A model generated the notes under the pieces. The model had not been told where the DNA came from. It saw nothing but the letters and a program-made list of their open reading frames with translations, and ran no database searches. Shown here one piece after another: positions 23,029 to 45,534 of a DNA stretch of 64,000 nucleotides (position 1 is the first letter of the stretch; each line of letters begins with the position of its first letter). The DNA lies in IMG/VR virus record IMGVR_UViG_3300028833_000002; one strand, given 5' to 3'. The stretch comes from a virus (Duplodnaviria; Heunggongvirae; Uroviricota; Caudoviricetes). The position numbers and the translations under genes were made by a program.

Positions 23029-23991
23029 ATGAAGCATAACTTCTCAATATATGATGAAAGACCAATTTTTACAATGCTTATGGGTTTACCGGGCAGTGGT
23101 AAGTCTACATTTGCAAATGAAGTAGTAACTGCTGACAGCCTTACATCTGTTCTTATATCTTCTGATTCTCTTAGAGAGGAATTGTTTGGAGATGTAAATG
23201 ACCAGACACATAACACAGAAGTATTTGAAGAAATGCATAGAAGAACTATTGTTGCACTTAAAGAAGGTAAGGACGTATTCTATGATGCGACAAATCTTTC
23301 CGGCAAGCGTAGAAAGGCTTTCCTTAATTCTCTTAATGGTTTAAAGAATAAGGTTCATAAGAGAATTATGGTATTTGCTACTCCAGTAGAACTTTGTATT
23401 GCAAGAAATCACCGTAGAGAACGTAAGGTTCCTACAGAAGTAATTGAAAGAATGTATAAAACACTTACAATGCCGCGATATACTGAAGGATGGGATAGTA
23501 TTGTTTACTGGAGAGATGATTCCGTAAATATTACACCAGACTTCTATTACGTAGACAGCATTGATAATGACCACGATAGCCACTGGCACCCAAGAAATAT
23601 CGCAGACCACATGGATGCTGTTTATGATTACGTAAGCAAGAATTGTGAGGAACGTGGTCTTAAATGTGATACAATTCTTAGAGCCGCAAAGTATCATGAC
23701 GTAGGTAAGCCTTACGTTAAGTCAAGAATCAACAATCGCGGCGAAGTTGATATAGAATCACACTATTACAACCACGAAAATGTAGGTGCATATATCCTTG
23801 CTTGTTGCGGCGAAAGCGACTACACAGTTGCTCTTGTTCAGTATCACATGGATATTATGCGTGAATCACATGATAAGAATGACTTCGACCCAAGAGCTAC
23901 AAAGGCTTATAAGGATTTCGTAGATGGCTATGGTGAAAAGATGGCTGAATGTTTAGTGCTTATCAATGAAGCAGATAGGAAAATGGCATAA
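23029..23991 (+). CDS. P-loop polynucleotide-kinase-like N-domain fused to an HD phosphohydrolase domain (Pnkp-like RNA/DNA end-healing enzyme)
   Basis: A Walker A motif GLPGSGKST is present. The C-terminal half carries an HD motif (KYHDVGKP) and additional His/Asp residues. Confidence 0.6.
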   Translation: MKHNFSIYDERPIFTMLMGLPGSGKSTFANEVVTADSLTSVLISSDSLREELFGDVNDQTHNTEVFEEMHRRTIVALKEGKDVFYDATNLSGKRRKAFLNSLNGLKNKVHKRIMVFATPVELCIARNHRRERKVPTEVIERMYKTLTMPRYTEGWDSIVYWRDDSVNITPDFYYVDSIDNDHDSHWHPRNIADHMDAVYDYVSKNCEERGLKCDTILRAAKYHDVGKPYVKSRINNRGEVDIESHYYNHENVGAYILACCGESDYTVALVQYHMDIMRESHDKNDFDPRATKAYKDFVDGYGEKMAECLVLINEADRKMA

Positions 23992-24004
23992 GAGGTGAAA
24001 GAAA

Positions 24005-24388
24005 ATGAAAGATGGACCAATAACGCTCAATCGAGCAATAAAATGTTATACTCCGCTGCGAAGTCATAATAAAAAGGCATCTGAGGATTTTCTTAAAAAG
24101 TGGAATTTCCATTATGAAGATGCTTGGAACTTAGACTATGAAATTGCATACTTTATTCTTGTGCGGCTAGTGTTATACAAAGAAAACAAGCATGGTATTC
24201 CGGGACGCCTTGGGGAGGGAGATTTTAGAGCCCTTGAAAGAAAATGGGACACTATATTAGACAAGATGATTCGAGCCTTCTATTTCTATATAGCTATAGA
24301 TGACTATGACCGCACTCCTCGAATGACAAAGGTTATTGAAAAAGGTTTTAAACTTTTTTCTGATTACTACTACAGTTTATGGGATTAA
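24005..24388 (+). CDS. hypothetical protein
   Basis: A ribosome-binding site is present. Confidence 0.5.
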   Translation: MKDGPITLNRAIKCYTPLRSHNKKASEDFLKKWNFHYEDAWNLDYEIAYFILVRLVLYKENKHGIPGRLGEGDFRALERKWDTILDKMIRAFYFYIAIDDYDRTPRMTKVIEKGFKLFSDYYYSLWD

Positions 24389-24397
24389 GTGAAACTC

Positions 24398-24426
24398 TTT
24401 ACTTTTAGTGAGAGATATGTTATAAT
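24398..24426 (+). promoter_or_regulatory. promoter family copy driving the suppressor tRNA (about 290-nt leader)
   Basis: TTTACT-17-TATGTTATAAT. Confidence 0.55.
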
Positions 24427-24713
24427 ATAAATATAGTAAAAAGCACGAGTCAGTCGTGTAACAGTTATATAGCGAAGGTTCAGACTTCAATAAGTAGGGC
24501 GTAAGCCGCGAAAACATTGGCTTCTGTTCAAAAAAGAGTCGCTGGTTGTACATACAAGATATGTACATGTAAGGGAAGAAGATGTTGGGTGCGCAGAGCA
24601 TGGGATACCTTCTCAACATCCAGACCTACTACAAGCTCTGTTTAGGCTGTCACTATCTTGCCCATGTGATAGCCGGTCGAAGGGATTCCGATGGCAATAG
24701 GAATTCCATATGC

Positions 24714-24788
24714 TTCCACGTCGTCAAGAGGCTCAAGACACCGCTCTCTAAAAGCGGCATTTCGAAGGTTCGAATCCTTCCGTGGAAA
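24714..24788 (+). tRNA. amber suppressor tRNA, anticodon CUA (reads UAG); Gln-like body with U1:A72
   Basis: The acceptor is ttccacg/cgtggaa. The anticodon arm is ccgct-ctCTAaa-agcgg. The T-arm is gaagg-ttcgaat-ccttc. It has its own promoter at 24398. Confidence 0.7.
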
Positions 24789-24834
24789 TCGCGGCAATCC
24801 GCAAATAAAATATTTTAAAAAGAGGTAATAATTT

Positions 24835-25191
24835 ATGTACAAATGTCCAGTATGCAATTTTTCAACAGATGATATTGTTGCTTACAGCGAACACATCGCA
24901 AAGGAAGCTGACAAGGAAGTAAAGGCTCAGAAGGATAAGGAGCTGAAGATTAAGGAAAAGGCAGAACAGGAAATCACAGATGGTATCAAGGCTATCAATG
25001 CTAAGATTAAGGCTTACAATGACAAGTATGGTAAGACCGACAACATTAAGGAACTTAGATTCTGTAAGGAAGGTAAAGTTGTTTTTCGCGGCGCAAGGTC
25101 TGATTGCCCTGTAGTAGAAGACCCACTTGCCGACATAAGCACAGAAGACTTTGAAAAGCTCATTAATAGCGTATTTGACCTTACAAACTAA
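24835..25191 (+). CDS. zinc-finger-like (CPVC) coiled-coil protein
   Basis: A GAGG ribosome-binding site is present. Confidence 0.5.
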   Translation: MYKCPVCNFSTDDIVAYSEHIAKEADKEVKAQKDKELKIKEKAEQEITDGIKAINAKIKAYNDKYGKTDNIKELRFCKEGKVVFRGARSDCPVVEDPLADISTEDFEKLINSVFDLTN

Positions 25192-25200
25192 GGAGCAGCC

Positions 25201-27710: not shown

Positions 27711-28052
27711 ATGGAAAAGCGTCAGGCTTTCTATCTCTATCTTGATGATATACGTGAGATAGACCCTATATGCAACCAATTTAAATATTACAAGCATTGT
27801 CATGTGGTTGATGAAGCAAAGTTTTTTGTTCAGTCAGCTATTAGTATTGGAGCGACTGAAATTTGGTTTGACCTTGACCACGACCTTGGCGACTATGCCC
27901 CATATGGTGGGGATGGTATTGAGTTAGTTAATTGGCTTGTTGAGATGTATCATGACAAGAACGTTGACTTCAAATTCCATTTCCATTCTATGAACCCTGT
28001 CGGCGTTCAGAATATGAGAAATGCAATTGAAAAGTATTGGGAGGAATTTTAA
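27711..28052 (+). CDS. hypothetical protein
   Basis: A ribosome-binding site is present. Confidence 0.5.
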   Translation: MEKRQAFYLYLDDIREIDPICNQFKYYKHCHVVDEAKFFVQSAISIGATEIWFDLDHDLGDYAPYGGDGIELVNWLVEMYHDKNVDFKFHFHSMNPVGVQNMRNAIEKYWEEF

Positions 28053-28545: not shown

Positions 28546-28574
28546 TTTACTTTTATCTTAACTTGTGTTATAAT
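28546..28574 (+). promoter_or_regulatory. promoter family copy
   Basis: TTTACT-17-TGTGTTATAAT followed by ATATACAGAAAGTTAAGAGAGGAG. Confidence 0.6.
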
Positions 28575-28906: not shown

Positions 28907-29113
28907 ATGCTTGATAATTGGAAAACCAATATACTTGACAATTGGAGAGCTGTAGATATAGAAGGTATTAAATCCGTAATAGCATATCGCGGTCATATTT
29001 TTCTCGACATTGAGGAATTACATCAATGGAAAATAGAAAATGAGTGGAATGGTATTGATATTGCTGTAACCAAAGAAGATATATTAAGAGAAGGAGAAAT
29101 ATATAATGACTAA
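28907..29113 (+). CDS. hypothetical protein Confidence 0.4.
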   Translation: MLDNWKTNILDNWRAVDIEGIKSVIAYRGHIFLDIEELHQWKIENEWNGIDIAVTKEDILREGEIYND

Positions 29114-29918
29114 AGATTCATTAGGTAATAGAATGAAAACTTATGAGGCTGTTCCAAAGAATTTCCTCATGAGAAAAAACCCTGTTATCATTAGGCTGGA
29201 TGGCAAGGCCTTTCATACGTTCACTCGTGGTTTTGAAAAGCCGTTCGATAAAATCATTGAAACAGCCATGACACAAACCATGCTTTATCTTTGTAAAAAC
29301 ATACAGGGTTGTGTTCTTGGCTACACCCAGTCTGACGAGATTACTCTTATTCTCTGTGACTATCAGAAAGTTGATACAGCCGCATGGTTTGATTACAATG
29401 TTCAGAAAATGGTTTCTATCTCTGCGGCCATGGCGACATATGCTTTTAACATGGTTCTTGAAAATATCGCGGCGGATTTATTTGCCGAAGCTGGTAATCA
29501 GACAACTGAGATGACCGACCTCCTCATGAGAAAGATAGACAAGGGCGCATTCTTTGATGCACGTGCGTTCTCACTTCCTCGTAATGAGGTAATAAATTGT
29601 CTTATCTGGCGCCAGCAGGATGCAACTCGCAACTCAATTCAAGGCCTTGCGCAGTCGCTCTATTCTCACAAGGAACTTCAGGGCATTAGTTGTAATGAAC
29701 TTCAGGACAAGATGTTTACTGAAAAGGGTGTAAACTGGAATGACCTTACGACTTATCAGAAGCGTGGAGCGTGTGCTGTTCGTAAGATGGTAAACAAAAT
29801 ATCACCTACAAATGCAGTTGTCCCAAGATGTGATTGGGTTATAGATGATGACATTCCTATATTCACGCAAAACAGGGACTATGTTGAAAGTAGGATTAAT
29901 TTTTCTGAAGGAGAATAA
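29106..29918 (+). CDS. Thg1-like protein (tRNA 3'-5' nucleotidyltransferase / tRNA-His guanylyltransferase family)
   Basis: The sequence reads RMKTYEAV...PVIIRLDGKAFHTFTRGFEKPFD...GYTQSDEITLIL. This matches Thg1/TLP signature motifs. Confidence 0.75.
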   Translation: MTKDSLGNRMKTYEAVPKNFLMRKNPVIIRLDGKAFHTFTRGFEKPFDKIIETAMTQTMLYLCKNIQGCVLGYTQSDEITLILCDYQKVDTAAWFDYNVQKMVSISAAMATYAFNMVLENIAADLFAEAGNQTTEMTDLLMRKIDKGAFFDARAFSLPRNEVINCLIWRQQDATRNSIQGLAQSLYSHKELQGISCNELQDKMFTEKGVNWNDLTTYQKRGACAVRKMVNKISPTNAVVPRCDWVIDDDIPIFTQNRDYVESRINFSEGE

Positions 29919-31553: not shown

Positions 31554-32450
31554 ATGGGTTTTTTCACAAGAGAACTGAAGAACGGTTCAACAGAAGTAAG
31601 AGTAGGTAGAATTGTAGGCGTATCAATTGCCGGCATTGTCGGACTGATTACATTATTCTCGTCATTCACTAAGGTAAACACCGGTTATACTGGTGTAAGA
31701 GTAATCCTTGGTGCAGTACAGGAATCTACATTCGAGCCGGGCTTCCATCTTATGACACCTTACGTAGAAACAGTTGTTAAGATGGATAATAAGGTCAGAA
31801 AGATTGAGGTTAATGCGGCTTCAACATCAAAAGACCTTCAGGCGGTAAGTTCTACACTCGCAATCAACTATCATCTTTCAAAGGAAAAGTCTGTTGATAT
31901 GTTTAAGTCAGTAGGTCTTTCATATGAAGACACACTTCTCCAGCCGGCAATTCAGGAAGCTACAAAGTCTATTATGGCGCAGTATAAGGCTGAGGAACTT
32001 ATTAAGAACAGAGCCGAAGTTTCTGTTGCCATCATGGATGAGATTAGCCGCAAGATGAATGGCTATGGTATTATGATTGATGAATTCAACATCACAAACT
32101 TTGACTTCTCACAGGCGTTTAATGATGCTATTGAGCAGAAGCTCGTGGCAGAACAGAATAAGATTAAGGCGGCAACAGAAAATGAACAGAGAGTTGCAGC
32201 CGCTGAAGCTGATGCCGCAGAAGCAAAGGCTAGAGCAGAAGGTGAAGCCGAAGCCGCAAGAGTTAAGGCTGAAGGCGAAGCCGCAGCAATTAGGGCAAGG
32301 GCCGCTGCAGAAGCAGAAGCTAACGAACAGATTAGAAAGTCTATTACTAATGAACTTATTGATTATAATAGAATTGAAAAGTGGAACGGTGAACTTCCTA
32401 ATATTATGACTGGTTCAGACGGCAATGTAATTGTTAATGCTACAAAGTAA
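31554..32450 (+). CDS. SPFH/Band-7 (stomatin/HflC-like) membrane protein
   Basis: An N-terminal TM helix is followed by an SPFH core and an Ala/Glu-rich coiled coil. Confidence 0.65.
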   Translation: MGFFTRELKNGSTEVRVGRIVGVSIAGIVGLITLFSSFTKVNTGYTGVRVILGAVQESTFEPGFHLMTPYVETVVKMDNKVRKIEVNAASTSKDLQAVSSTLAINYHLSKEKSVDMFKSVGLSYEDTLLQPAIQEATKSIMAQYKAEELIKNRAEVSVAIMDEISRKMNGYGIMIDEFNITNFDFSQAFNDAIEQKLVAEQNKIKAATENEQRVAAAEADAAEAKARAEGEAEAARVKAEGEAAAIRARAAAEAEANEQIRKSITNELIDYNRIEKWNGELPNIMTGSDGNVIVNATK

Positions 32451-32961: not shown

Positions 32962-33630
32962 ATGTATTATTACTATACTGACCGTTATCCGGATAATCGG
33001 TTTCATGAATACAAGTATCCGATTAAACTCGATGAAGAAGGTTTAATTCATGTGCTTGCTAGGATACTTGATTTCAGCAGACCTGGTGTGGTAAATCCAT
33101 ACTATGATGTGGATTTTAGCGGCACAGATTTGAGAATAGAATCAGAAAAGTTTTATTGTTTTTGTGAATATTCTGTAGTCAATTATGTTCCAAAGCGCTA
33201 TATCTTTACTAATGAAAATGGCGGCATAGTAGATATTCGTCAGTTTGAAGATAGGGTTAGAAAATACAGACATAAAAATATACCTCTTTATTGGCAGCAC
33301 TTAGGCACACCAAATCGCGGCGAAAAATGTATAACAAGCTATAGAGAACCATTTCGTTTCAGAGAGGGGCCAGTGCCGGGCCGACACCACCATCGAGGAT
33401 GGAATTACACACCTACCACACACTACTTTCAGAATTTTAAAAACAAAGAAAATCTTAGACCTGGCACAGTTCCAAACTCATGGGATTCTGCTGACACTAG
33501 ATGGTATAGACATTGCGATAAGTCTTGGAAGTCAAGCTACAAGTGCCGCCATCAGTGGGAGAAACATTTAATCAGAAGAAATAAAACAAATAATGCATAT
33601 GTAGATATGGAGGAAGATATAGATGAATAA
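32962..33630 (+). CDS. hypothetical protein with a His/Arg-rich C-terminus
   Basis: ATG 32962 follows a GAGAGGTG ribosome-binding site. The track start at 32956 is a GTG. Confidence 0.5.
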   Translation: MYYYYTDRYPDNRFHEYKYPIKLDEEGLIHVLARILDFSRPGVVNPYYDVDFSGTDLRIESEKFYCFCEYSVVNYVPKRYIFTNENGGIVDIRQFEDRVRKYRHKNIPLYWQHLGTPNRGEKCITSYREPFRFREGPVPGRHHHRGWNYTPTTHYFQNFKNKENLRPGTVPNSWDSADTRWYRHCDKSWKSSYKCRHQWEKHLIRRNKTNNAYVDMEEDIDE

Positions 33631-34201
33631 GACATTTTTTATTAGTGATACACATTTTAATCACAATAAGCCTTTTGTTTATGCGGCAAGAGGTTTTAAG
33701 ACAATTGAAGATATGAATGAAGCGATTATCACCAACTGGAACAGAGTGGTTGAAGATGGTGATAAGGTGTTTGTGCTTGGAGATTTTGCTCTTGGGATGG
33801 ACCTTGCAAATATTGAGGATATTCTTCTTGAACTTCACGGCGAAAAGCACTTTATCAGAGGAAACCATGATACGGACAGTAAGTGGGAATTCTATAAGAA
33901 TATGGATAGCGATGCTAATGTCTATGTTCATGACTGGACTTACATTACTAAAATGGGTAAGAACATGGTTTACATGAGCCATTTTCCTACTATGGTAAAT
34001 GACCACAGCCTTAAACCACTTAACAAGGCTATCATTAACCTTTTCGGACATACTCACAGCAAGGATAAGTTCTTTAAGGTTGGTGGTTATACTAATTACT
34101 TTATGTATAATGTAGCATGTGATGCTCATGACTGTACTCCGGTAAGTTGGGAAGACATCTATGCTGACATTAAAGGAGCTTTGGAAAAAGGAGGGGATTA
34201 A
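33623..34201 (+). CDS. calcineurin-like metallophosphoesterase
   Basis: DTHFNH, GDFALG, GNHD and GHTH are present. Confidence 0.7.
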   Translation: MNKTFFISDTHFNHNKPFVYAARGFKTIEDMNEAIITNWNRVVEDGDKVFVLGDFALGMDLANIEDILLELHGEKHFIRGNHDTDSKWEFYKNMDSDANVYVHDWTYITKMGKNMVYMSHFPTMVNDHSLKPLNKAIINLFGHTHSKDKFFKVGGYTNYFMYNVACDAHDCTPVSWEDIYADIKGALEKGGD

Positions 34202-38819: not shown

Positions 38820-39710
38820 ATGGAATTCAAGAAATATATTGATATTGAACGCTTAAAAGAAAAATATGCTATGGCTTTTAAGCCTGGTGAAATGATTACA
38901 GTTTCCGAGAAAATTGATGGCAGCAATGCCTCGTTTGACGGTAATCTTAATGCCTTCTCTCGTCGTAAGGTATTAGACGAAACAAATACCCTTAATGGCT
39001 TTTATGATTTTGTGAAAACACTTGATGCCACAAAGGTTATGGAGGTTCTTGGTGAGAACTTTATTGTCTTTGGTGAATGGTTGTGCAAGCATACTGTAAA
39101 ATACCCAGAAGATAAGATGCATAAGTTCTACGCCTTTGACGTATGGAATAAGGAAACAGCACAATACCTTCCTTGGAGTGAAGCAAAAAAGATTATCGCA
39201 GAACTTGGTCTTAACACAGTACCAATTTTTTATGAAGGCCCATTCACATCTTGGGATGACATTAATAAATTGGTTGGACAGACAAAAATGGGGGCTTCTC
39301 CTTGCGGGGAAGGACAGGTCGTAAAATCACAGGACAGACTTGACAACAAGTCCTCAAACACCCCGGCATATGTAAAAATTGTTGATGCACGTTTCTCTGA
39401 GGTAAAGGGTCAGAAGGAACAGAAGATGGTTGACCCTGAAAAAATTGCTGCAAAGCATGCTCAGGAAGCTCTTGCTGCAACTATCGTAACAGAAAGACGA
39501 GTAGAAAAACTCATACAGAAAATAATAGAAGACGGTCTTATTCCAGCAGAATGGGATGAAAAGGACCTTGGTACAATTGCAAAGCATCTTCCAAAGGCTG
39601 TATATGCGGACTGCGTAAAGGAAGAACCGGAAACAGTTGCTCAGATTGAAAACTTTGGTAAGATTGCGGCTGGCATTGCAATGAAGCTTGCAAGAGGACT
39701 GGTAAAATGA
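38820..39710 (+). CDS. ATP-dependent RNA ligase, Rnl2-like
   Basis: Nucleotidyltransferase motifs are present: I EKIDGSN, III FGEWL, IV EGQVVK, V YVKIV. Confidence 0.65.
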   Translation: MEFKKYIDIERLKEKYAMAFKPGEMITVSEKIDGSNASFDGNLNAFSRRKVLDETNTLNGFYDFVKTLDATKVMEVLGENFIVFGEWLCKHTVKYPEDKMHKFYAFDVWNKETAQYLPWSEAKKIIAELGLNTVPIFYEGPFTSWDDINKLVGQTKMGASPCGEGQVVKSQDRLDNKSSNTPAYVKIVDARFSEVKGQKEQKMVDPEKIAAKHAQEALAATIVTERRVEKLIQKIIEDGLIPAEWDEKDLGTIAKHLPKAVYADCVKEEPETVAQIENFGKIAAGIAMKLARGLVK

Positions 39711-39907: not shown

Positions 39908-39929
39908 CTTTTTTAAAGTTGTGTTATAA
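39903..39929 (+). promoter_or_regulatory. promoter family copy (15-nt spacer)
   Basis: TTGACT-15-TGTGTTATAAT. Confidence 0.5.
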
Positions 39930-39965
39930 TTAATATATAATAAAAATTCTAAGGAGGAATTTCTA

Positions 39966-40568
39966 ATGGAAATGGGTAATTTTATGAAGGGTATGTTTGG
40001 ACCGGTTAAGGGTGGTCTTTGTCGTCTGACTATTGATGGCAATATCGCAGTAAAGGTTAATGGTGGTTATAAGGCTTATAATCCAACCGAGAAGGCTTTT
40101 GTTAACTGTGACAACTTCGTATTTGATGTTGGTGATGAAATGTTCTTCGTTATTCCTACAAATACTGTTACGGCTGGTGATATTATCCTTGCTGGCGGAA
40201 GTGAACCGGCTCCTCGTTACGTTCTCAAAGTTGCAGATGACATGATTACTTGCATTAACTACAAGAACGGTACAGTTGAGAACATCATGCCTGAACGTCA
40301 TATGTTTATGGGCAATACTTATTTCTATGGAAAGATTACAAGCCTGTTTGGCAACATGGGCGGTATGTTCGGTGCAAGCGCTGATGGCGCACAGAACGTT
40401 ATGAAGTTCATGATGATGAAGCAGTTAATGGGTGGCATGACTGGCACAGACGGTGGCAATCCGATGCTCATGATGATGATGATGAACGGTGGCGGTATGA
40501 ATATGTTTGATAATCTTTTCAAGGCTGTAAATCCTGTTGCACCAGCAGAAACAAAGGAGGGTGAATAA
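39966..40568 (+). CDS. hypothetical protein with a Met/Gly-rich C-terminus
   Basis: An AAGGAGG ribosome-binding site is present. Confidence 0.5.
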   Translation: MEMGNFMKGMFGPVKGGLCRLTIDGNIAVKVNGGYKAYNPTEKAFVNCDNFVFDVGDEMFFVIPTNTVTAGDIILAGGSEPAPRYVLKVADDMITCINYKNGTVENIMPERHMFMGNTYFYGKITSLFGNMGGMFGASADGAQNVMKFMMMKQLMGGMTGTDGGNPMLMMMMMNGGGMNMFDNLFKAVNPVAPAETKEGE

Positions 40569-40571
40569 TCT

Positions 40572-41453
40572 ATGGGAGGGGGCTCATGGACGACTGAAAA
40601 GTTTAAGAGTTATTCTACATCAATGAGCAGAGGGGTTGACTCTACAGGTAGAGCCCTTCTTAGCGATGATGTAACCCAGAACTATACTCAGCGTGGTCTG
40701 GCAAAGGAACTTAATCCTTTTAATGTAAAGAGAGAATGTAGGGACAGTGAGGAACACCCAAATACTGTTCCTGTAATCCTCGCCCTTGACGTTACTGGTT
40801 CTATGGGTAAGGCGGCCAACGAAGTTGCCGCAGAACTTAATAACATCATGACTGAACTTTATGAAAAGGTAGCAGACGTTGAGTTTATGATTGCGGCTAT
40901 TGGTGACTTCTCTTATGATGATGCACCACTTCAGGTATCGCAGTTTGAATCTGATATTCGTATCGCTGAACAGCTTGATAAGGTTTATTTTGAACGTGGC
41001 GGCGGTCCGAATGATTGGGAATCTTATTCAGCCATTTGGAAGTTCGCGGCGGAAAGAACTGAACTTGACTGTTGGAAGAGGGGCAAGAAGGGTATTATCA
41101 TAACAATGGGTGATGAAATTCTTAATCCTTATATTGATAGTGATAAGTATGAAGAAGTAGTTAATCAGGGTTCTTTAGCTTGTGGCTTTGATACAAAGAA
41201 GATTTATGAAGCCGTAAAGGATAAGTATGACCTCTATCATATAAACGTTGACCACAGAAGCTATAAGCCAAGCCTGTCTACTTGGTATAAGACTCTTGGT
41301 AAGGACCATGTATTTGATTGCTCAGTAAAGGAAATTGCTCAGATTATTCCTCAGATTATTACTACCCATGAAAGCGAAGGCTTTATAGTTGGTGTAGACG
41401 TGGCGCCAAAGCCAGATAGTATAATCGAATTTACAAACGAAATTTCTTGGTAA
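40572..41453 (+). CDS. von Willebrand factor A domain protein
   Basis: The MIDAS motif is DVTGSMG. Confidence 0.6.
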   Translation: MGGGSWTTEKFKSYSTSMSRGVDSTGRALLSDDVTQNYTQRGLAKELNPFNVKRECRDSEEHPNTVPVILALDVTGSMGKAANEVAAELNNIMTELYEKVADVEFMIAAIGDFSYDDAPLQVSQFESDIRIAEQLDKVYFERGGGPNDWESYSAIWKFAAERTELDCWKRGKKGIIITMGDEILNPYIDSDKYEEVVNQGSLACGFDTKKIYEAVKDKYDLYHINVDHRSYKPSLSTWYKTLGKDHVFDCSVKEIAQIIPQIITTHESEGFIVGVDVAPKPDSIIEFTNEISW

Positions 41454-41465
41454 AAGGAGAGCAAA

Positions 41466-42602
41466 ATGACGGACGTAAAAATTGTAACTGGATTAAATTA
41501 TGGTGATGAGTCAAAAGGACTCGTTGCCAATGCAGTAAGCACACCTACTTGCCTGAATATCTTACCATCTAATTCTTGTCAGAGAGCACACACAGTAGTT
41601 GAAAATGGAGTGAGAAAAGTGTTCCGTCATTTTGGTAGTGGTACACTTAAAGGAGCGGCTACCTATTTCACAGATAAGTTTCTTGTAAATCCTGCTATGT
41701 TTAGACAGGAATGGGAAGAACTTGCTGCAATGGGTATCACTCCGAAGGTGTATGTACGTTTAGGGGCTATGTGTGTAACTCCTATTGATATGTTTGCAAA
41801 TGTGAATGTTGAGGAACGTCGCGGCGAAAAATCTCATTCATCTACTGGTTGCGGTGTTTGGGAAACTATATGCCGTCATAAGACTTTAGCATTTTCACAG
41901 GGTATGTATGCGTGTGAAGATATAGTTGCATATTATGAAGAAGTCTTAAAAGATAAAAATGGCATTCTGCCGGAAAATGTAAAAGAGTTCTTGCATGGTG
42001 ATTGTCTTAAAGATAATATAAATGAAGACTTTACGTGGTTCTATGAACACGTTACCGTAATTAAAGACCAGTGGGAAGAAACACAACTTCTCCACTCTTA
42101 TCCACTTCTTGTGTTTGAGAATGGTCAGGGATTACTTCTTGATGATAGATATAGCTGCGATATTAACCATAATACCCCGGCATGTGTTGGCATGATAGAA
42201 GCTGAAAGAATACTTAATCAGAATTTTCTTAGAACAGAAGTTAATGTTGAAGCACTTTATGTAACACGTTCATATTACACTCGTCATGGTAAGGGACAGA
42301 TAGGCCTATGGAGTAATTGTGAATGTGATAAGGACGAAATTAATCCATGTATGTTTGATGCCACAAATGTGCCGAACCCAAATCAGGGCACTCTACGTTA
42401 TGGTAAAATTGATGAACTTGAAGCCAAGACAATCGCGGCGAGAGCGGTCAATGATAGTATAAGTCCATTCTTTGATGTTACCACTTCTATGGTGGTTACT
42501 CATTGTAATGAATATATGAATAATTATTTAATTGATGCCGCAAACGACCAGAAATTAAATCTTTATGTTTCTTATGACGAAACTAATATTCGTAAAGTTT
42601 AA
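41466..42602 (+). CDS. adenylosuccinate synthetase family protein (PurA/PurZ-like)
   Basis: GLNYGDESKG, QRAHTV, FENGQGLLLDDRYSCDINHNTP and YYTRHGKGQ match PurA blocks. The protein is short (378 aa). Confidence 0.7.
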   Translation: MTDVKIVTGLNYGDESKGLVANAVSTPTCLNILPSNSCQRAHTVVENGVRKVFRHFGSGTLKGAATYFTDKFLVNPAMFRQEWEELAAMGITPKVYVRLGAMCVTPIDMFANVNVEERRGEKSHSSTGCGVWETICRHKTLAFSQGMYACEDIVAYYEEVLKDKNGILPENVKEFLHGDCLKDNINEDFTWFYEHVTVIKDQWEETQLLHSYPLLVFENGQGLLLDDRYSCDINHNTPACVGMIEAERILNQNFLRTEVNVEALYVTRSYYTRHGKGQIGLWSNCECDKDEINPCMFDATNVPNPNQGTLRYGKIDELEAKTIAARAVNDSISPFFDVTTSMVVTHCNEYMNNYLIDAANDQKLNLYVSYDETNIRKV

Positions 42603-42677: not shown

Positions 42678-42757
42678 GCTCTCGTGGTGGAATTGGTAGA
42701 CACGTATGCCTTAGGAGCATATGTTAATTCGTGTGGGTTCGAGTCCCACCGGGAGCA
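42678..42757 (+). tRNA. tRNA-Leu(UAG), type II
   Basis: The loop is ctTAGga, the variable arm is long, and the T-loop is GTTCGAGTC. Confidence 0.7.
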
Positions 42758-42759
42758 CT

Positions 42760-42831
42760 GTGTACGTAGTGTAATGGTTAACATGGAAGGATGTGGCCCT
42801 TCCGATGTGGGTCCAATTCCCGCCGTACACC
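42760..42831 (+). tRNA. tRNA-His(GUG); CCA encoded at 42832-42834
   Basis: The acceptor is gtgtacg/cgtacac. The loop is atGTGgc. Confidence 0.6.
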
Positions 42832-42835
42832 CCAC

Positions 42836-42909
42836 CCCCCTGTAATCCAACCGGCAGAGATAGCGCTCTTAAACAGCGTCCAGTACCAGTTCAAATCTGG
42901 TCAGGGGGA
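42836..42909 (+). tRNA. type-I (short variable arm) tRNA with anticodon UAA; Gln-like D-arm
   Basis: The acceptor is ccccctg/caggggg. The anticodon arm is gcgct-ctTAAac-agcgt. The T-arm is accag-ttcaaat-ctggt. Confidence 0.5.
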
Positions 42910-43249
42910 CTTTGATATGACAATGTATGCGAAACATGGACTCGATTAATATAGGCGTTAATTCCTCCGCGGGAGCTGCTTCTCCATGTGCTGTAGGCTC
43001 CTCATTGTCACACAAACGCTCCACAGCGAAAGGTGGCGTAATTCATTCTAGGCAACGTCAAAGCCAAATCAGGAGCTTGGTGAATGTCATTAGAGGACAA
43101 GAAAAGAGCATACCTTTTCTATCCCATTCTTAGCCGAATCTTAAACCAAGGCGTGGATGTGGAAGGGCTTGGCCCGGATGGCAACGCAGACCAACTCACG
43201 AGTGTCTAGGCGTTGAGTAGGTTTAACTTCGGTGAAAATGATTATAACG

Positions 43250-43277: not shown

Positions 43278-43299
43278 TTTTGGAAAATTTTAGTTTCTA

Positions 43300-43746: not shown

Positions 43747-43765
43747 TTGAAAGGAATATGAAATT

Positions 43766-44053
43766 ATGAAAATGTGTAAGAATTGCAGAAAAGAATATGG
43801 TTGGAGCAGATATGATGAATATTGCTGCAAGGAATGTTGGGAAGCCAATTATTGGGAGAAGGCTCTTGATAGCAAGGCTATTATAATTGGCGGTCATTGT
43901 TATCATGCTTATGGCGGCAAGTTTGATAAGTCAAAGAAGATTAAGATTAGAATGAATGATGGTACGCTTATTGAAACCTATGAACTGTTCGATGGCGGCA
44001 AGATACCGAGAAAGTTCCATATGAAAGATAATGCAAAGTTTGTTAAGTGGTGA
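43766..44053 (+). CDS. Cys-rich protein Confidence 0.45.
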   Translation: MKMCKNCRKEYGWSRYDEYCCKECWEANYWEKALDSKAIIIGGHCYHAYGGKFDKSKKIKIRMNDGTLIETYELFDGGKIPRKFHMKDNAKFVKW

Positions 44054-44068
44054 GCAATCACCACATAT

Positions 44069-44142
44069 GCTCTCGTAGTCCAATGGCAGTAGACAGTGCA
44101 CTCAAAATGCATCCAGTGTGGGTTCGAATCCCATCGAGAGCA
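44069..44142 (+). tRNA. type-I tRNA with anticodon CAA; Gln-like D-arm (paralogue of 42836)
   Basis: The acceptor is gctctcg/cgagagc. The anticodon arm is gtgca-ctCAAaa-tgcat. The T-arm is gtggg-ttcgaat-cccat. Confidence 0.5.
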
Positions 44143-44163
44143 CTTGGAAAAATCTGGTAGGTG

Positions 44164-44192
44164 TTGACTTTTACTTTAGATTGTGTTATAAT
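44164..44192 (+). promoter_or_regulatory. promoter family copy
   Basis: CTGGTAGGTGTTGACT-17-TGTGTTATAAT followed by the leader. Confidence 0.6.
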
Positions 44193-44203
44193 ATATATAG
44201 AAA

Positions 44204-44410
44204 ATGAGAAAGGAAGTAAAAAATATGTTTATTATGAATAATGGCGACCCAAAGAAGAACGCGGCCTCATATCTTTTTTCTTGTAAGAATTGTGGATGTG
44301 AATGGATGGCAGAACGAAAAGAGGTTTCAATTACACCGCCTTGTTTACCATATGCGATTTATATGAAGTGTCCGAATTGTAGAAAGACGGTAGAAGCAAA
44401 GGAGAGATAA
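44204..44410 (+). CDS. zinc-ribbon protein
   Basis: CKNCGC...CPNCRK. Confidence 0.45.
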   Translation: MRKEVKNMFIMNNGDPKKNAASYLFSCKNCGCEWMAERKEVSITPPCLPYAIYMKCPNCRKTVEAKER

Positions 44411-44412
44411 AA

Positions 44413-45534
44413 ATGTTAAAGATTCAGGAGTTTATTTTTGCACATGAAAATTGGCGTGAACTTTTGTCTGCCGCACCATATAATCTTAAAATTACAGAAG
44501 ATGATGGTTTCGTTATCTTTAAGTATAATCAGATAGATTCTGACTTTAACGAAGAAATTTGCAAAGAAGCTCGTGGTCTTATTCTTGACTCTACTGACAA
44601 CTTTAAGGCTGTTAGAATGGCGTTTAAAAAGTTCTTTAATCTCGGGGAATCTCATGCCGCAAAAATTGATTGGAATACTGCGACAGCCGGAGAAAAACTT
44701 GACGGTAGCCTTATGTCTGTATGGTATGCTCGCGGCGAATGGCATTTAAGCACCAATGGTACCATTGATGCCTTTAAAGCTCCACTTAACGGTGTTGGTC
44801 CATACAAGAACTTCGGTGAGTTATTTACTTCTGTAATGCCATTAGATTTCTTCGAAGGTGAACACTTCGGTAAGAACTGGGCAGACTTAAACTTATGTTT
44901 CACTTTCGAGTTAGTTTCTCCTTATAACAAGGTTGTTATAGACTACCCTGAAACAAAGGTATACTTACTTTCTATGCGTGAGATGGACACACTTCACGAA
45001 ATTAGCGGTGATGTAGTTAGAACTTTTGGTAAGATTAACGGCCTCAACCTTCCACAAGAATACAAACTCAGTAATGAAAAGGAATTTTGTGAGCTTGTAG
45101 AGTCTATGCCGGACGGCCATGAAGGTATCGTAGTTCGTGATATGTACAATGAACGTGTAAAGATAAAGACAAAGAGATACTTTGAACTTCATCGTATGGT
45201 TAACAATGGTGTAATTACTATTGAAAGAATTGTAGAATTAATCAAAGCAAATGACTATGAAGAGCTTTTAGCCTACTATCCGGAGATGACAGAAAAATTC
45301 ACAAAAATTATGTATCAGATACAATCCGCTGATGCTTACATCAAAAGAGTAAAGGCAGAAGTTAACACTTGTAAGAAATTTCAGGCCAACCGTAAAGATT
45401 TTGCCGAGTTCGCAAAACAGCAGAAAATCCCGGCATTATACTTCGCCGCGCTGGATGGAAAGATAGACAATTTTGTTGAGAAATTAACCACAAATCAGTT
45501 CATTAAGATGTTTAAGATAGGAGAAGACATATGA
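44413..45534 (+). CDS. RNA-ligase-like nucleotidyltransferase (Rnl1-like)
   Basis: Motif I is GEKLDGS, motif IV EGIVVRD, motif V VKIKTKR. Confidence 0.6.
   Translation: MLKIQEFIFAHENWRELLSAAPYNLKITEDDGFVIFKYNQIDSDFNEEICKEARGLILDSTDNFKAVRMAFKKFFNLGESHAAKIDWNTATAGEKLDGSLMSVWYARGEWHLSTNGTIDAFKAPLNGVGPYKNFGELFTSVMPLDFFEGEHFGKNWADLNLCFTFELVSPYNKVVIDYPETKVYLLSMREMDTLHEISGDVVRTFGKINGLNLPQEYKLSNEKEFCELVESMPDGHEGIVVRDMYNERVKIKTKRYFELHRMVNNGVITIERIVELIKANDYEELLAYYPEMTEKFTKIMYQIQSADAYIKRVKAEVNTCKKFQANRKDFAEFAKQQKIPALYFAALDGKIDNFVEKLTTNQFIKMFKIGEDI

What the first reader, a model, noticed from the sequence alone, without database searches (positions are those of the whole stretch)
23029..45534. Dense RNA-repair / tRNA-maintenance toolkit co-located with at least 23 tRNA genes
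Within about 22 kb the phage encodes the following:
- a Thg1-like 3'-5' polymerase (29106)
- a P-loop kinase fused to an HD domain (23029), likely a 5'-kinase / 2',3'-phosphatase end-healing enzyme
- an Rnl2-like ligase (38820)
- an Rnl1-like ligase (44413)
- two metallophosphoesterases (33623, 34202)
- a Macro domain (28052)

Further downstream is a Ro60 orthologue (60099).

T4 uses only a kinase plus Rnl1 to undo anticodon-nuclease damage. This set covers end healing, sealing, 5'-end rebuilding and RNA quality control. It suggests a broad counter-defence against host tRNA-targeting nucleases such as PrrC, RloC and VapC-like toxins.
Basis: partly seen in the sequence, partly recalled or inferred. 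Interest (0 to 1): 0.8.

Follow-up and report, generated by a model that had tools for sequence, protein, structure and literature searches.

The report
Phage tRNA repair gene toolkit
A large, tRNA-rich phage of gut Firmicutes carries an unusually complete set of enzymes for mending broken RNA ends, probably to keep tRNAs working when the host attacks them; every enzyme type in it has already been catalogued in other large phages.

Summary
Profile searches confirm every family call:
- a polynucleotide kinase fused to an HD(IG) phosphohydrolase
- a bacterial-type Thg1-like 3'-5' polymerase (E=5e-64 to Bacillus thuringiensis TLP)
- a T4 Rnl1-type ligase with all catalytic motifs
- a PF09414 ligase whose model best matches full-length T4 Rnl2
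- two metallophosphoesterases
- a Macro domain
- a TROVE+vWA Ro60 homologue

The window holds 26-27 tRNA genes, but only 5 lie inside the stated interval.

In distantly related phage contigs the kinase-HD gene abuts Rnl1 or the PF09414 ligase. Thg1-MPE-kinase-HD form tight clusters there. This supports a shared end-healing, sealing and 5'-rebuilding function.

A counter-defence role is inferred, not shown. The Macro/cREC pair, the MPEs and Ro60 could serve other conflicts. The Thg1-like enzyme may also add G-1 to the phage's own tRNA-His, which has T at -1 and C73.

Such repertoires are already described for jumbo phages (Iyer et al. 2021). A similar set is annotated in the cultured Bacillus phage PK-3. 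Verdict: a new member of a known kind, of moderate interest.

The parts
23029..23991 (+). Pnk-HD: an N-terminal P-loop 5'-OH polynucleotide kinase (GLPGSGKST; Asp46 and Arg49) fused to a C-terminal HDIG phosphohydrolase (YHDVGK). Predicted end-healing enzyme.
   Evidence: Own sigma-70-like promoter at 22967-22995, behind a terminator. The gene abuts Rnl1 or the PF09414 ligase in L006, L017, L020, L022, L025-27 and phage PK-3.
27711..28052 (+). cREC (cyclic-phosphate processing receiver-like) protein. Its stop codon overlaps the Macro ATG by one base.
   Evidence: PF20274 5.9e-16; PHROG 1479 1.4e-16. Asp pairs at 12/13 and 54/56. The function is a published prediction only (PMC7824862, PMC9503650).
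28052..28534 (+). Macro domain protein (ADP-ribose derivative hydrolase or phosphatase type).
   Evidence: Pfam Macro 21.5 bits against a cut-off of 22; PHROG 335 2e-35. NxxxxxxGGG and GxGxGGG motifs present.
29106..29918 (+). Bacterial-type Thg1-like protein (TLP), a templated 3'-5' RNA polymerase.
   Evidence: PF04446 2.2e-30; BtTLP 4KGK 4.7e-64 against about 1e-9 for eukaryotic Thg1. RLDG and SDE carboxylates present. A promoter motif lies at 28566.
31554..32450 (+). SPFH/Band-7 protein. It is a recurrent neighbour of the toolkit genes; its role is unknown.
   Evidence: PF01145 4e-31. Contiguous with MPE1-Thg1 in L101 and with MPE2...Pnk-HD in L008.
33623..34201 (+). Metallophosphoesterase 1 (DxH, GD, GNHD, H, GHxH motifs). 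Candidate 2',3'-cyclic or 3'-phosphoesterase.
   Evidence: Adjacent to Thg1 in L101, and lying between Thg1 and Pnk-HD in L078. The operon promoter is at 32923.
34202..34879 (+). Metallophosphoesterase 2; starts at the base directly after MPE1's stop codon (no gap).
   Evidence: Lies about 3 kb upstream of Pnk-HD in L003, L008, L009, L012/13 and L028.
38820..39710 (+). PF09414 ATP-dependent RNA ligase of Rnl2-like build: an NTase domain with K31 in KIDG, plus a C-terminal helical domain.
   Evidence: AlphaFold model pLDDT 75. Best Foldseek hits are full-length T4 Rnl2 2HVR/2HVQ at 9e-7. Homologues occur in Staphylococcus, Listeria, Bacillus and Lactobacillus phages.
39966..42602 (+). Conserved block downstream of the ligase, role unknown: p200 (beta-rich domain plus Met/Gly tail), a 293-aa protein with a vWA-like DxTxS motif read by eye, and a divergent PurA-like enzyme.
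   Evidence: The block is conserved in L010, where Pnk-HD follows about 630 bp downstream with room for a short ORF, and in L111, L114 and L115. PurA-like: PF00709 1.8e-14, far below the PurA equivalog cut-offs, and no PurZ structure matched. p200 fold search uninformative.
42678..42910 (+). tRNA-Leu(TAG), tRNA-His(GTG) and tRNA-Leu(TAA), spaced 1 nt apart. tRNA-His has T at -1, C73 and an encoded CCA.
44413..45534 (+). T4 Rnl1-family tRNA ligase.
   Evidence: PF09511 8.8e-17; PHROG 562 4e-51. Aligned to T4 Rnl1 over residues 33-320, with the residues aligned to R54, K75/F77, K99, E159, E227/G228 and K240/K242 conserved. Promoter motif at 44184.
49355..59683 (+). Main tRNA arrays (21-22 genes) interspersed with small ORFs, homing-endonuclease-like genes and a ROOL RNA (53631-54219).
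60099..61754 (+). Ro60-like TROVE + vWA RNA-binding protein (MIDAS motif DNSGS).
   Evidence: 54% identical to Bacillus phage G gp540. Promoter motif at 59747.
61826..61968 (+). Candidate Y-RNA-like structured element downstream of Ro60. Weak evidence.
   Evidence: Fold z = -4.76. CGAA-containing closing stem. 86% conserved in L109, with two hairpins identical. However, the stem arms are palindromes (TTCGCNGCGAA), the L109 3' arm is degenerate, and there is no Rfam hit.

Best explanation
This is the early-expressed RNA-maintenance region of a roughly 180-kb, tRNA-rich phage of gut Firmicutes that reads TAG as a sense codon.

Core pathway (inferred from homology and gene neighbourhood):
1. [quoted passage not shown] The HD domain, possibly helped by cREC and the metallophosphoesterases, opens and removes the 3' phosphate. 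The kinase domain phosphorylates the 5'-OH.
2. The Rnl1-type ligase seals breaks in anticodon loops.
3. The Rnl2-like ligase seals nicks in base-paired regions.
4. The Thg1-like polymerase refills nucleotides missing from the 5' strand of the acceptor stem, using the 3' strand as template. It needs the 5'-monophosphate that the kinase makes.
5. The same polymerase probably also adds G-1 opposite C73 to the phage's own tRNA-His, whose gene has T at -1.

The 26-27 phage tRNAs supply replacements. The Ro60-like protein binds damaged or misfolded RNA or captures host PNPase.

The likely purpose is to keep translation running when host nucleases attack tRNA. That purpose is inference.
For: - Family assignments and intact catalytic motifs for every enzyme.
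- The TLP is 5e-64 to BtTLP. BtTLP prefers 5'-truncated tRNAs, adds templated G-1 to C73-tRNA-His, and in those assays acted on 5'-monophosphorylated tRNA activated with ATP (PMC3061083).
- The Rnl2-like model best matches full-length T4 Rnl2, and only RNA ligases score well.
- Independent juxtapositions in contigs only 35-50% identical: Rnl2L-Rnl1-PnkHD in tandem (L006); PnkHD and Rnl1 overlapping or adjacent (L017, L022, L025-27; phage PK-3); Rnl2L-PnkHD (L020); Thg1-MPE1-PnkHD (L078); Band7-MPE1-Thg1 (L101).
- The characterised Runella HD-Pnk also sits beside a ligase gene (PMC6097658).
- One promoter motif (20 copies, 0.07 expected) precedes Thg1, the MPE operon, the Rnl2L operon, Rnl1, the tRNA arrays and Ro60.
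- PK-3 has a separate DNA ligase.
- Staphylococcus phage PMBT8 has a TLP but no tRNA genes, so TLPs in phages are not only for phage tRNA-His.
- The published comparative work predicts exactly this logic (PMC7824862, PMC9503650).
Against: - No enzyme here or in any phage homologue of the Pnk-HD, TLP, cREC or MPEs has been assayed.
- No host nuclease is visible.
- In this window the genes are spread over 38 kb among about 50 unrelated small ORFs, under many separate promoters, so 'one system' is an overstatement.
- Synteny among related phages partly reflects common descent.
- I found no KptA/Tpt1, RtcB, RlaP, 2H or CCA-adding enzyme in the ORFs scanned, so the Macro/cREC link to RNA repair lacks its usual partner.
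- The PF09414 ligase falls far below the NCBIfam Rnl2 cut-off (31 bits against 197), and its clade is uncharacterised.
- T4 Rnl2's own biological role is unknown (my knowledge).
Confidence: 0.62

Rival explanations
1. Housekeeping for the phage's own tRNAs rather than counter-defence. The Thg1-like enzyme exists to add G-1 to phage tRNA-His. The gene has T at -1, so RNase P would leave a 7-bp stem lacking the main HisRS identity element. The other enzymes tidy the ends of the tightly packed, co-transcribed tRNA arrays.
For: - Window tRNA-His: G1:C72, C73, T at -1, only 1 nt from the upstream tRNA. The same holds in the close relative L111.
- BtTLP adds G-1 efficiently opposite C73 (kcat/KM 5500 M-1 s-1; PMC3061083).
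- In L029/L030 tRNA-His lies about 300 nt upstream of the Thg1 gene.
- tRNA-His appears to be co-transcribed with the Rnl2L...PurA-like operon, since no promoter motif lies between 38536 and 43320.
Against: - L029/L030 encode G at -1 yet keep the TLP.
- Phage PMBT8 has a 47%-identical TLP and no tRNA gene at all.
- BtTLP prefers 5'-truncated tRNAs 5-160-fold over -1 addition.
- Ordinary tRNA processing (RNase P, RNase Z) leaves 5'-P and 3'-OH ends that need neither a kinase nor a ligase (established knowledge).
- This rival explains one enzyme, not the set.
Confidence: 0.3
2. A mixed bag. Only Pnk-HD plus the ligases (and the TLP) repair RNA. The peripheral genes act in other conflicts:
- Macro/cREC destroy ADP-ribose-derived immune signals or remove ADP-ribose adducts.
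- The metallophosphoesterases degrade cyclic-nucleotide signals or act as protein phosphatases.
- Ro60 with a Y-like RNA sequesters host PNPase.
- The PurA-like enzyme supports nucleotide pools.
For: - The published analyses give these alternative roles for phage Macro, cREC and calcineurin-like enzymes (PMC7824862, PMC9503650).
- Phage phiLo Ro60, the nearest solved relative, attenuates host PNPase (PMC12135203).
- No KptA/Tpt1 was found in the window.
- An NT5C nucleotidase and the PurA-like gene show that the region also holds nucleotide-metabolism genes.
Against: - MPE1 sits directly between Thg1 and Pnk-HD in L078 and next to Thg1 in L101.
- cREC is reported to be operonically linked to RNA ligases elsewhere (PMC7824862).
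- In Salmonella, Ro60 is encoded in the rsr-yrlBA-rtcBA RNA repair operon (my knowledge). PMC7790460, seen only as a title and abstract, describes the RtcB/RtcA repair operon.
Confidence: 0.4
3. DNA end processing. The kinase-phosphatase and ligases heal and seal DNA breaks or Okazaki fragments during replication, recombination or homing-endonuclease traffic.
For: - Runella HD-Pnk is described as a DNA/RNA end-healing enzyme (title of Munir & Shuman 2017, seen).
- T4 Pnkp also acts on DNA (my knowledge).
- Some homologues of the PF09414 ligase in Staphylococcus phages are annotated 'DNA ligase' or 'Lig'.
- GIY-YIG/HNH homing-endonuclease-like genes are nearby.
- I found no dedicated DNA ligase in this window.
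Against: - The Rnl1 family is tRNA-specific, and this one aligns with T4 Rnl1 into its C-terminal domain.
- The PF09414 model hits RNA ligases at 1e-6 to 1e-4 and DNA ligases only at 5e-3 or weaker.
- PK-3 has a separate ATP-dependent DNA ligase in the same neighbourhood.
- The partner TLP acts on RNA.
- The window is only about a third of the genome, so a DNA ligase may lie elsewhere.
Confidence: 0.08

Closest known systems
T4 Pnkp + Rnl1 tRNA restoration pathway (counter to the PrrC anticodon nuclease)
   Same: It combines a P-loop 5'-OH polynucleotide kinase with a fused 3'-phosphoesterase and an Rnl1-family ligase that has the same catalytic motifs. The predicted logic is the same: heal, then seal.
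   Different: - The phosphoesterase here is an HD(IG) domain, not the DxDxT HAD domain of T4.
- The genes are 20 kb apart in this window.
- It is accompanied by a TLP, a second ligase, cREC/Macro, MPEs and Ro60.
- No activity has been tested.
Runella slithyformis HD-Pnk repair cluster (Munir & Shuman 2017; PMC6097658)
   Same: An HD phosphoesterase and a Pnk kinase share one polypeptide. A ligase gene lies directly beside it in the relatives L006 and L020 and in phage PK-3.
   Different: - The domain order is reversed (Pnk N-terminal, HD C-terminal). PHROG 6931 matches in the HD-then-kinase order.
- There is no Tpt1 or MTase-HIT partner here.
- This one is phage-encoded.
RNA-repair repertoires of jumbo phages catalogued by Iyer, Anantharaman, Krishnan, Burroughs & Aravind 2021 (PMC7824862) and the 2022 NAD+/ADPr survey (PMC9503650)
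   Same: The parts list matches: Rnl1, Rnl2, Pnk, HD- or calcineurin-like phosphoesterases, cREC, Macro, Thg1, ROT/TROVE and many tRNAs. The proposed purpose is also the same.
   Different: - This phage is about 180 kb, below their roughly 200-kb jumbo range, and is an uncultured, TAG-recoded gut Firmicutes phage.
- It lacks RtcB, RlaP, KptA, 2H and a CCA-adding enzyme, at least in this window.
- It combines Thg1 and TROVE, which that survey called sporadic and rare.
Bacillus phage PK-3 and the Tsamsa-like Bacillus siphoviruses (FADO, Kirov, PBC2)
   Same: PK-3, a cultured phage, has the full-length Pnk-HD protein overlapping an RnlA-family ligase, a PF09414 ligase nearby and a Thg1-like gene. 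FADO, Kirov and PBC2 were shown to carry only the full-length Pnk-HD, and FADO also a Thg1-like gene.
   Different: - Protein identity is only 33-47%.
- No Ro60, cREC/Macro or large tRNA array was seen in the region I fetched.
- These genes are annotated there merely as 'AAA family ATPase' or 'polynucleotide kinase'.
Bacillus thuringiensis Thg1-like protein (BtTLP, PDB 4KGK)
   Same: Similarity is 5e-64 over the whole length, and the catalytic carboxylates are conserved.
   Different: The phage protein has a roughly 28-residue insertion (residues 120-147). It is phage-encoded and untested.
Thermus phage phiLo Ro60 with Yrl RNAs (PMC12135203); bacterial Rsr/YrlA (PMC4201824)
   Same: The architecture is TROVE ring plus vWA, and phiLo Ro60 is the nearest solved relative (1e-12). 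A structured element with a CGAA motif lies next to the gene.
   Different: - Sequence similarity is low.
- No Rfam-detectable YrlA is present.
- The candidate RNA lies downstream of the gene, and its stem arms are palindromes that could instead be DNA operators.

Membership tests
T4-type Pnkp/Rnl1 tRNA repair pair | 5'-OH polynucleotide kinase domain with a P-loop and a catalytic Asp/Arg | tested here: met
   AAA_33 1.2e-23. PDB hits include the CthPnkp kinase, Pnkp1 and T4 Pnk. GLPGSGKST, D46 and R49 are present.
T4-type Pnkp/Rnl1 tRNA repair pair | 3'-phosphatase of the DxDxT (HAD) acylphosphatase type, fused to the kinase | tested here: not met
   The C-terminal domain is HD/HDIG (PF01966 3.4e-7; TIGR00277 31.6 bits against a cut-off of 27.6), not HAD.
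T4-type Pnkp/Rnl1 tRNA repair pair | Rnl1-family ligase with nucleotidyltransferase motifs I, III, IV and V plus the C-terminal tRNA-specificity domain | tested here: met
   PF09511 8.8e-17. The alignment to T4 Rnl1 covers residues 33-320, with the residues aligned to K99, E159, E227/G228 and K240/K242 conserved. TIGR02308 is matched to position 329 of 373, but at 63 bits, below the 242-bit equivalog cut-off.
T4-type Pnkp/Rnl1 tRNA repair pair | Restores anticodon-nuclease-cleaved tRNA | not testable with these tools
   This needs biochemistry or genetics.
HD-Pnk (Runella type) | An HD phosphoesterase and a Pnk kinase in one polypeptide | tested here: met
   (PHROG 6931 8e-41, two stretches).
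HD-Pnk (Runella type) | Domain order: HD N-terminal, Pnk C-terminal | tested here: not met
   The kinase is at residues 15-150 and the HD at residues 190-317. In PHROG 6931 the kinase matches profile positions 178-337 of 343.
HD-Pnk (Runella type) | Polynucleotide ligase gene immediately adjacent | tested here: inconclusive
   Not adjacent in this window, where the ligases lie 15 and 21 kb away. Adjacent or overlapping in L006, L017, L020, L022, L025-27 and phage PK-3.
Bacterial/archaeal Thg1-like proteins (TLP) | Thg1 catalytic domain above the Pfam threshold, with the metal-binding carboxylates | tested here: met
   105.7 bits against a cut-off of 29.2. RLDG (D32) and SDE (D77/E78) are present.
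Bacterial/archaeal Thg1-like proteins (TLP) | Closer to characterised TLPs than to eukaryotic Thg1 | tested here: met
   BtTLP 4.7e-64, against 1e-9 to 1e-7 for Candida and human Thg1.
Bacterial/archaeal Thg1-like proteins (TLP) | Templated 3'-5' addition to 5'-truncated tRNA | not testable with these tools
   Biochemical assay needed.
Rnl2 (T4 Rnl2 type) | PF09414 nucleotidyltransferase domain with the motif I lysine | tested here: met
   88.6 bits against a cut-off of 27. KIDG K31, and the motif III, IIIa and IV equivalents can be read.
Rnl2 (T4 Rnl2 type) | Rnl2-type C-terminal helical domain (two-domain match to T4 Rnl2) | tested here: inconclusive
   The model has a confident helical C-domain (pLDDT above 90). 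The best Foldseek hits are full-length T4 Rnl2 (351-354 columns, E 9e-7), but TM is about 0.3 because the domain orientation differs and residues 162-204 are poorly modelled.
Rnl2 (T4 Rnl2 type) | Reaches the NCBIfam Rnl2 equivalog score | tested here: not met
   TIGR02307 31 bits against a cut-off of 197. The scores for the DraRnl and Pab1020 models are similarly weak. It is a separate PF09414 clade shared with Staphylococcus, Listeria, Bacillus and Lactobacillus phages.
Ro60/Rsr ribonucleoprotein | TROVE (HEAT-repeat ring) domain plus a vWA domain with MIDAS | tested here: met
   TROVE 34 bits against a cut-off of 23 (partial). PHROG 850 8e-49 over residues 1-523. phiLo Ro60 1.1e-12. DNSGS motif present.
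Ro60/Rsr ribonucleoprotein | Y RNA (YrlA-like) encoded within a few kb on the same strand | tested here: inconclusive
   No Rfam hit at E<=1. A structured CGAA-bearing element lies at 61826-61968 (z -4.76) and is conserved in L109. Its arms are palindromes, and they do not co-vary.
KptA/2H/Macro NAD+-dependent 2'-phosphate removal route | A KptA/Tpt1 2'-phosphotransferase that generates the ADP-ribose cyclic phosphate the Macro/cREC/2H enzymes would process | tested here: not met
   No KptA or 2H family appeared among the 50 window ORFs scanned against Pfam. Smaller ORFs and the rest of the genome were not scanned.
PurZ (2-aminoadenine 'Z-genome' synthase) | Specific similarity to PurZ rather than to PurA | tested here: not met
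   Only PurA structures were hit, weakly (1e-7). No PurZ entry was hit at E<=0.01. All NCBIfam PurA models scored far below their cut-offs. The PHROG 1211 label is inherited.

The most novel reading that the evidence does not exclude
Two linked ideas.

(1) The recurrent Thg1-like / metallophosphoesterase / Pnk-HD clusters (L078, L101 and this window) may be a dedicated pathway that rebuilds the 5' strand of tRNA acceptor stems. The steps would be kinase, then adenylylation, then templated 3'-5' fill-in. Its purpose would be to counter host nucleases that clip tRNA 5' ends or acceptor stems. No such phage counter-defence has been shown experimentally.

(2) The conserved block between the Rnl2-like ligase and Pnk-HD may be a new RNA-repair or purine-pool-rescue module. 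The block is p200, a vWA protein and a divergent PurA-like enzyme, contiguous from ligase to PurA-like in L010, with Pnk-HD about 630 bp further downstream. It would then be something other than ordinary nucleotide metabolism.
Probability: 0.2. Interest if true: 0.7.

Novelty: new member of a known kind. Interest (0 to 1): 0.4.

Why it matters
tRNA cleavage is now recognised as a common end-point of bacterial immunity (PrrC, RloC, PARIS, retrons, OLD, Cas12a3). Even so, T4 Pnkp/Rnl1 remains almost the only phage repair answer that has been tested experimentally.

This window is a compact, well-delimited example of the expanded repertoire predicted by comparative genomics. It comes from an abundant, uncultured gut phage lineage, and the catalytic motifs of its enzymes are intact.

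It nominates concrete proteins for biochemistry:
- the Pnk-HD, whose domain order is reversed relative to Runella HD-Pnk
- a phage TLP
- cREC
- two MPEs

It also offers a clean test case for whether phage TLPs mature tRNA-His, repair 5' ends, or do both, because this phage's tRNA-His lacks an encoded G-1. It does not reveal a new kind of system.

Tried and rejected
- Near-identical DNA in cultured phages: none found.
- PurZ / Z-genome reading of the PurA-like gene: rejected. No PurZ structure or model was matched. It resembles the 'PurA-like' genes of cluster-C-type mycobacteriophages and of Rhizobium and Vibrio phages.
- Y RNA by Rfam at E<=1: nothing. The attractive long stem downstream of Ro60 arises from two copies of the palindrome TTCGCNGCGAA, and the relative L109 breaks rather than compensates the pairs. 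I kept it only as a weak candidate.
- vWA293 as a paralogue of the Ro60 vWA domain: no similarity.
- p200 structure: model pLDDT 64. Foldseek gave no match below E 0.018, only vague SH3/KOW/Tudor-like barrels.
- Search for RlaP, KptA, 2H, RtcB, PTH and CCA-adding enzymes among 50 ORFs (Pfam) and 20 ORFs (PHROGs): none found. ORF 49699-50469 has only a 0.0086 hit to an adenylyltransferase family.
- Survey of tRNA-His -1 bases in Thg1-carrying phages: blastn of the tRNA-His against cultured phages found nothing. Only two lineages among the fetched loci had tRNA-His within reach, one with T at -1 and one with G. This is too few for a correlation.
- PHROG search of the TAG-read-through 1346-aa ORF: no family.
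- The Burroughs & Aravind 2016 NAR paper could not be opened. Its content is cited only through the 2021 and 2022 papers.

Full report
**Observation.** The window (64 kb, 37.6% G+C) is almost entirely transcribed on the + strand.

Pfam, PHROGs, NCBIfam and PDB sequence searches confirm the assignments:
- 23029-23991 is a P-loop kinase of the polynucleotide-kinase type. AAA_33 scores 1.2e-23. The nearest solved relatives are PSTK, the Clostridium thermocellum Pnkp kinase domain, Pnkp1 and T4 Pnk. It is fused to an HD/HDIG domain.
- 29106-29918 is a Thg1-family protein (2.2e-30).
- 38820-39710 is a PF09414 RNA ligase (6.9e-25).
- 44413-45534 is a T4 Rnl1-family ligase (8.8e-17).
- 33623-34201 and 34202-34879 are metallophosphoesterases. 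All five signature motifs are present in both.
- 28052-28534 is a Macro domain. Pfam scores 21.5 bits, just under the 22-bit cut-off, but PHROG 335 scores 2e-35.
- 60099-61754 is a TROVE + vWA protein.

ARAGORN finds 26 tRNA genes and Rfam finds one more. Only five lie inside 23029-45534. The main arrays are at 49.3-59.7 kb.

- Immediately upstream of Macro lies a cREC gene (27711-28052, PF20274 5.9e-16). Its stop codon overlaps the Macro ATG by one base. The Aravind group defined this "cyclic-phosphate processing receiver" domain and linked it by gene context to RNA ligases and NAD+/ADP-ribose processing (PMC7824862, PMC9503650). Its activity is untested.
- A Band-7/SPFH gene (31554-32450) recurs beside the toolkit genes in relatives.
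- A block runs from 38820 to 42602: Rnl2-like ligase, a 66-aa ORF, p200, a vWA-like protein, and a PurA-like enzyme. It is conserved in L010, L111 and L114/115. In L010 the Pnk-HD gene follows the block about 630 bp downstream of the PurA-like gene.

**Anatomy of the core enzymes.**
- Kinase domain: GLPGSGKST, plus the Asp/Arg pair aligned with the catalytic residues of T4 and Cth Pnk.
- HD domain: carries the HDIG signature YHDVGK.
- Rnl1-like protein: aligns with T4 Rnl1 from residue 33 to 320. The residues aligned to R54, K75/F77, K99, E159, E227/G228 and K240/K242 are conserved.
- Thg1-like protein: a bacterial TLP. It scores 4.7e-64 to Bacillus thuringiensis TLP (4KGK), against about 1e-9 for eukaryotic Thg1. 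BtTLP prefers 5'-truncated tRNAs, adds templated nucleotides, adds G-1 efficiently opposite C73, and in those assays acted on 5'-monophosphorylated tRNA activated with ATP (PMC3061083).
- PF09414 ligase: not a close relative of T4 Rnl2 by sequence. It scores 31 bits against the 197-bit equivalog cut-off, and no T4 Rnl2 hit appears in the PDB sequence search. An AlphaFold model (pLDDT 75, with a confident C-terminal helical domain) finds full-length T4 Rnl2 as its best structural match (E 9e-7, 351 columns). NgrRnl and Pab1020-type RNA ligases follow, matching over the nucleotidyltransferase domain only. DNA ligases score 5e-3 or worse. Its sequence clade is shared with Staphylococcus, Listeria, Bacillus and Lactobacillus phages.

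**Evidence that the genes work together.**

In this window the genes are dispersed among about 50 small unknown ORFs, so clustering here is weak evidence on its own. Stronger evidence comes from contigs whose proteins are only 35-50% identical to the window's:
- Pnk-HD overlaps or abuts Rnl1 in L017, L022 and L025-27.
- Pnk-HD forms an Rnl2L-Rnl1-PnkHD tandem in L006.
- Pnk-HD abuts the PF09414 ligase in L020.
- Thg1-MPE1-PnkHD are clustered in L078.
- Band7-MPE1-Thg1 are contiguous in L101.
- Pnk-HD lies about 2.5 kb upstream of Thg1 in some 25 contigs of about 180 kb, though these may all be one lineage.

In the cultured Bacillus phage PK-3, an RnlA-family ligase overlaps the Pnk-HD gene, which is annotated "AAA family ATPase". 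A PF09414 ligase and a nucleotidyltransferase lie nearby, and a separate ATP-dependent DNA ligase is present. The only characterised HD+Pnk fusion, Runella HD-Pnk, also sits beside a ligase gene (PMC6097658).

Within the window, a 21-nt promoter motif (TGnTATAAT-AnATATAGAAAG) occurs 20 times between 25.7 and 62 kb, against 0.07 expected. It precedes Thg1, the MPE operon, the Rnl2L operon, Rnl1, the tRNA arrays and Ro60. Pnk-HD has a similar extended -10 promoter. The set is therefore probably one temporal class read by host RNA polymerase.

**Mechanism.**
- Shown: family membership, intact catalytic motifs and conserved neighbourhoods.
- Inferred: the HD domain (with possible help from cREC and the MPEs) opens and removes 2',3'-cyclic or 3' phosphates, and the kinase phosphorylates 5'-OH. 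Rnl1 seals anticodon-loop breaks. The Rnl2-like ligase seals nicks in duplex regions. The TLP refills missing 5' nucleotides of acceptor stems from the 5'-monophosphate that the kinase provides. The phage tRNAs act as spares.
- Further inference: a counter-defence purpose. This matches the published interpretation of such repertoires (PMC7824862).

**Rival for the TLP.** The phage tRNA-His (42760-42834) has G1:C72, C73, an encoded CCA, and T at -1. It starts two bases after the discriminator base of the upstream tRNA-Leu. G-1, the main HisRS identity element, is therefore not encoded, and a BtTLP-like enzyme could add it opposite C73. The close relative L111 is the same. In L029/L030, however, G is encoded at -1 and the TLP is still present. 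Staphylococcus phage PMBT8 has a 47%-identical TLP and no tRNA genes at all. So maturation of tRNA-His is a plausible extra job here, but it cannot be the general reason phages keep TLPs.

**Peripheral genes.**
- Macro/cREC would fit the KptA route for 2'-phosphate removal. I found no KptA or 2H enzyme among the 50 ORFs scanned. They may instead destroy ADP-ribose-derived signals (PMC9503650).
- The nearest solved relative of the TROVE protein is Ro60 of Thermus phage phiLo. That protein binds Y-like RNAs and attenuates host PNPase (PMC12135203).
- A structured element downstream of the gene folds well (z -4.76) and carries CGAA motifs. Its closing stem is made of two copies of a palindrome, and a relative breaks the pairs rather than compensating them. 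Rfam finds no Y RNA.

**Identity of the phage.** There is no close DNA match among cultured phages. Protein relatives sit on contigs of about 180 kb, including one that is 93% identical over the PurA-like protein and fully syntenic. One relative is named from a Eubacterium MAG, and others come from human faecal viromes. Between 2.3 and 17.7 kb, TAG is clearly read as sense: three reading frames of 1022, 1346 and 734 codons are free of TAA and TGA but contain 4-6 TAGs each. An amber-suppressor tRNA(CTA) lies at 24714-24788. The toolkit region itself uses the standard code.

**Comparison and novelty.** Every component, and the idea that such components together counter tRNA-targeting immunity, was set out in the jumbo-phage survey. 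That survey covered Rnl1, Rnl2, Pnk, HD and calcineurin-like phosphatases, cREC, Macro, Thg1, TROVE and tRNAs. A similar gene set is annotated in the cultured Bacillus phage PK-3, and the full-length Pnk-HD occurs in other Tsamsa-like Bacillus phages. The differences here are:
- the lineage, an uncultured, recoded gut Firmicutes phage
- the Pnk-then-HD domain order, reversed relative to Runella HD-Pnk
- the co-occurrence of the sporadic Thg1 and TROVE genes
- the absence of RtcB, RlaP and KptA, at least in this third of the genome

This is a new member of a known kind, with moderate interest. Its main value is as a source of testable enzymes and a clean tRNA-His/TLP test case.

Noticed in passing
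window 2297-17708 and 24714-24788: TAG is read as a sense codon in the upstream block, probably virion or late genes. Three frames of 1022, 1346 and 734 codons are free of TAA/TGA but contain 4, 4 and 6 in-frame TAGs. An amber-suppressor tRNA(CTA) lies at 24714-24788. Genes from 19 kb onward use the standard code. This fits the stop-codon recoding known in gut phages.
   Followed up: partly
window 53631-54219 (+): A full-length ROOL RNA (Rfam RF03087, 285 bits, E 3e-64) sits inside the tRNA array, between tRNA-Leu(AAG) and tRNA-Ile. ROOL is known to occur in phages near tRNA islands and to form an RNA nanocage; its function is unknown (PMC12286853).
   Followed up: partly
window 42759-42834: The phage tRNA-His has T, not G, at position -1, with C73 and an encoded CCA. 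It starts two bases after the discriminator base of the upstream tRNA-Leu. The G-1 identity element would have to be added after transcription, and the Thg1-like enzyme is the obvious candidate.
   Followed up: partly
L029 9523-9597 and L030 9524-9598: In two related contigs of about 94 and 186 kb, tRNA-His lies about 300 nt upstream of the Thg1-like gene. It has G at -1 but two mismatches (positions 4 and 5 against 69 and 68) in the acceptor stem. This recalls the substrates of protist mitochondrial tRNA 5'-editing.
   Followed up: no
window 54662-54732 (+) and 54320-54393 (+): At 54662-54732 there is an A+T-rich tRNA-like gene with a 6-nt anticodon loop (ARAGORN 'tRNA-?(Phe|Ile)(aa)', Rfam tRNA 39.9 bits). 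At 54320-54393 there is a second tRNA seen only by Rfam (38.8 bits). These may be non-canonical or decoy tRNAs.
   Followed up: partly
window 25742-62024 (20 sites, e.g. 35778, 38536, 43320, 49656, 62004): A highly conserved promoter-like motif, TGnTATAAT-AnATATAGAAAG, usually has TTGACT/TTTACT 17 nt upstream. It occurs 20 times on the + strand in this range (a 21st, 3-mismatch match lies at 5423), against 0.07 matches expected in the whole window, and also in the relative L109. It is probably the phage's early or middle promoter class.
   Followed up: partly
window 39966-42602; L010 6500-9356; L111 800-3676: A conserved block of p200 (beta-rich domain plus a Met/Gly-rich tail), a 293-aa protein with a vWA-like DxTxS motif (read by eye; no family hit), and a divergent PurA-like enzyme. 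The PurA-like enzyme keeps the catalytic Asp and His but lacks the guanine-specificity TKLD motif. The block is wedged between the RNA ligase and, in L010, the Pnk-HD gene, which follows about 630 bp downstream. PurA-like genes also occur in cluster-C-type mycobacteriophages such as ET08. ET08 is one of the mycobacteriophages for which Chen et al. 2014 report a Ro60 orthologue and a YrlA-like RNA.
   Followed up: partly
window 61826-61968: Two copies of the palindrome TTCGCNGCGAA, about 125 bp apart, flank two perfectly conserved hairpins downstream of the Ro60-like gene. This is either a Y-RNA-like transcript or a pair of operator sites.
   Followed up: partly
window 21444-22196 and 57465-57950: GIY-YIG and HNH-like homing-endonuclease genes lie next to, or inside, the toolkit and tRNA regions. 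Homologues are scattered in several related loci.
   Followed up: no
L112/L113 (Staphylococcus phage PMBT8, MK893987.1): An 88-kb siphovirus carries a 47%-identical Thg1-like gene but no tRNA gene and none of the other toolkit genes. This would be a useful minimal system for asking what a phage TLP does.
   Followed up: partly
window 74-1153 and 5456-6568: A GDSL-family lipase/acylhydrolase (1.4e-22) and a GH113 glycoside hydrolase (3.9e-94) sit among the recoded upstream genes. They are possibly virion-associated depolymerases.
   Followed up: no
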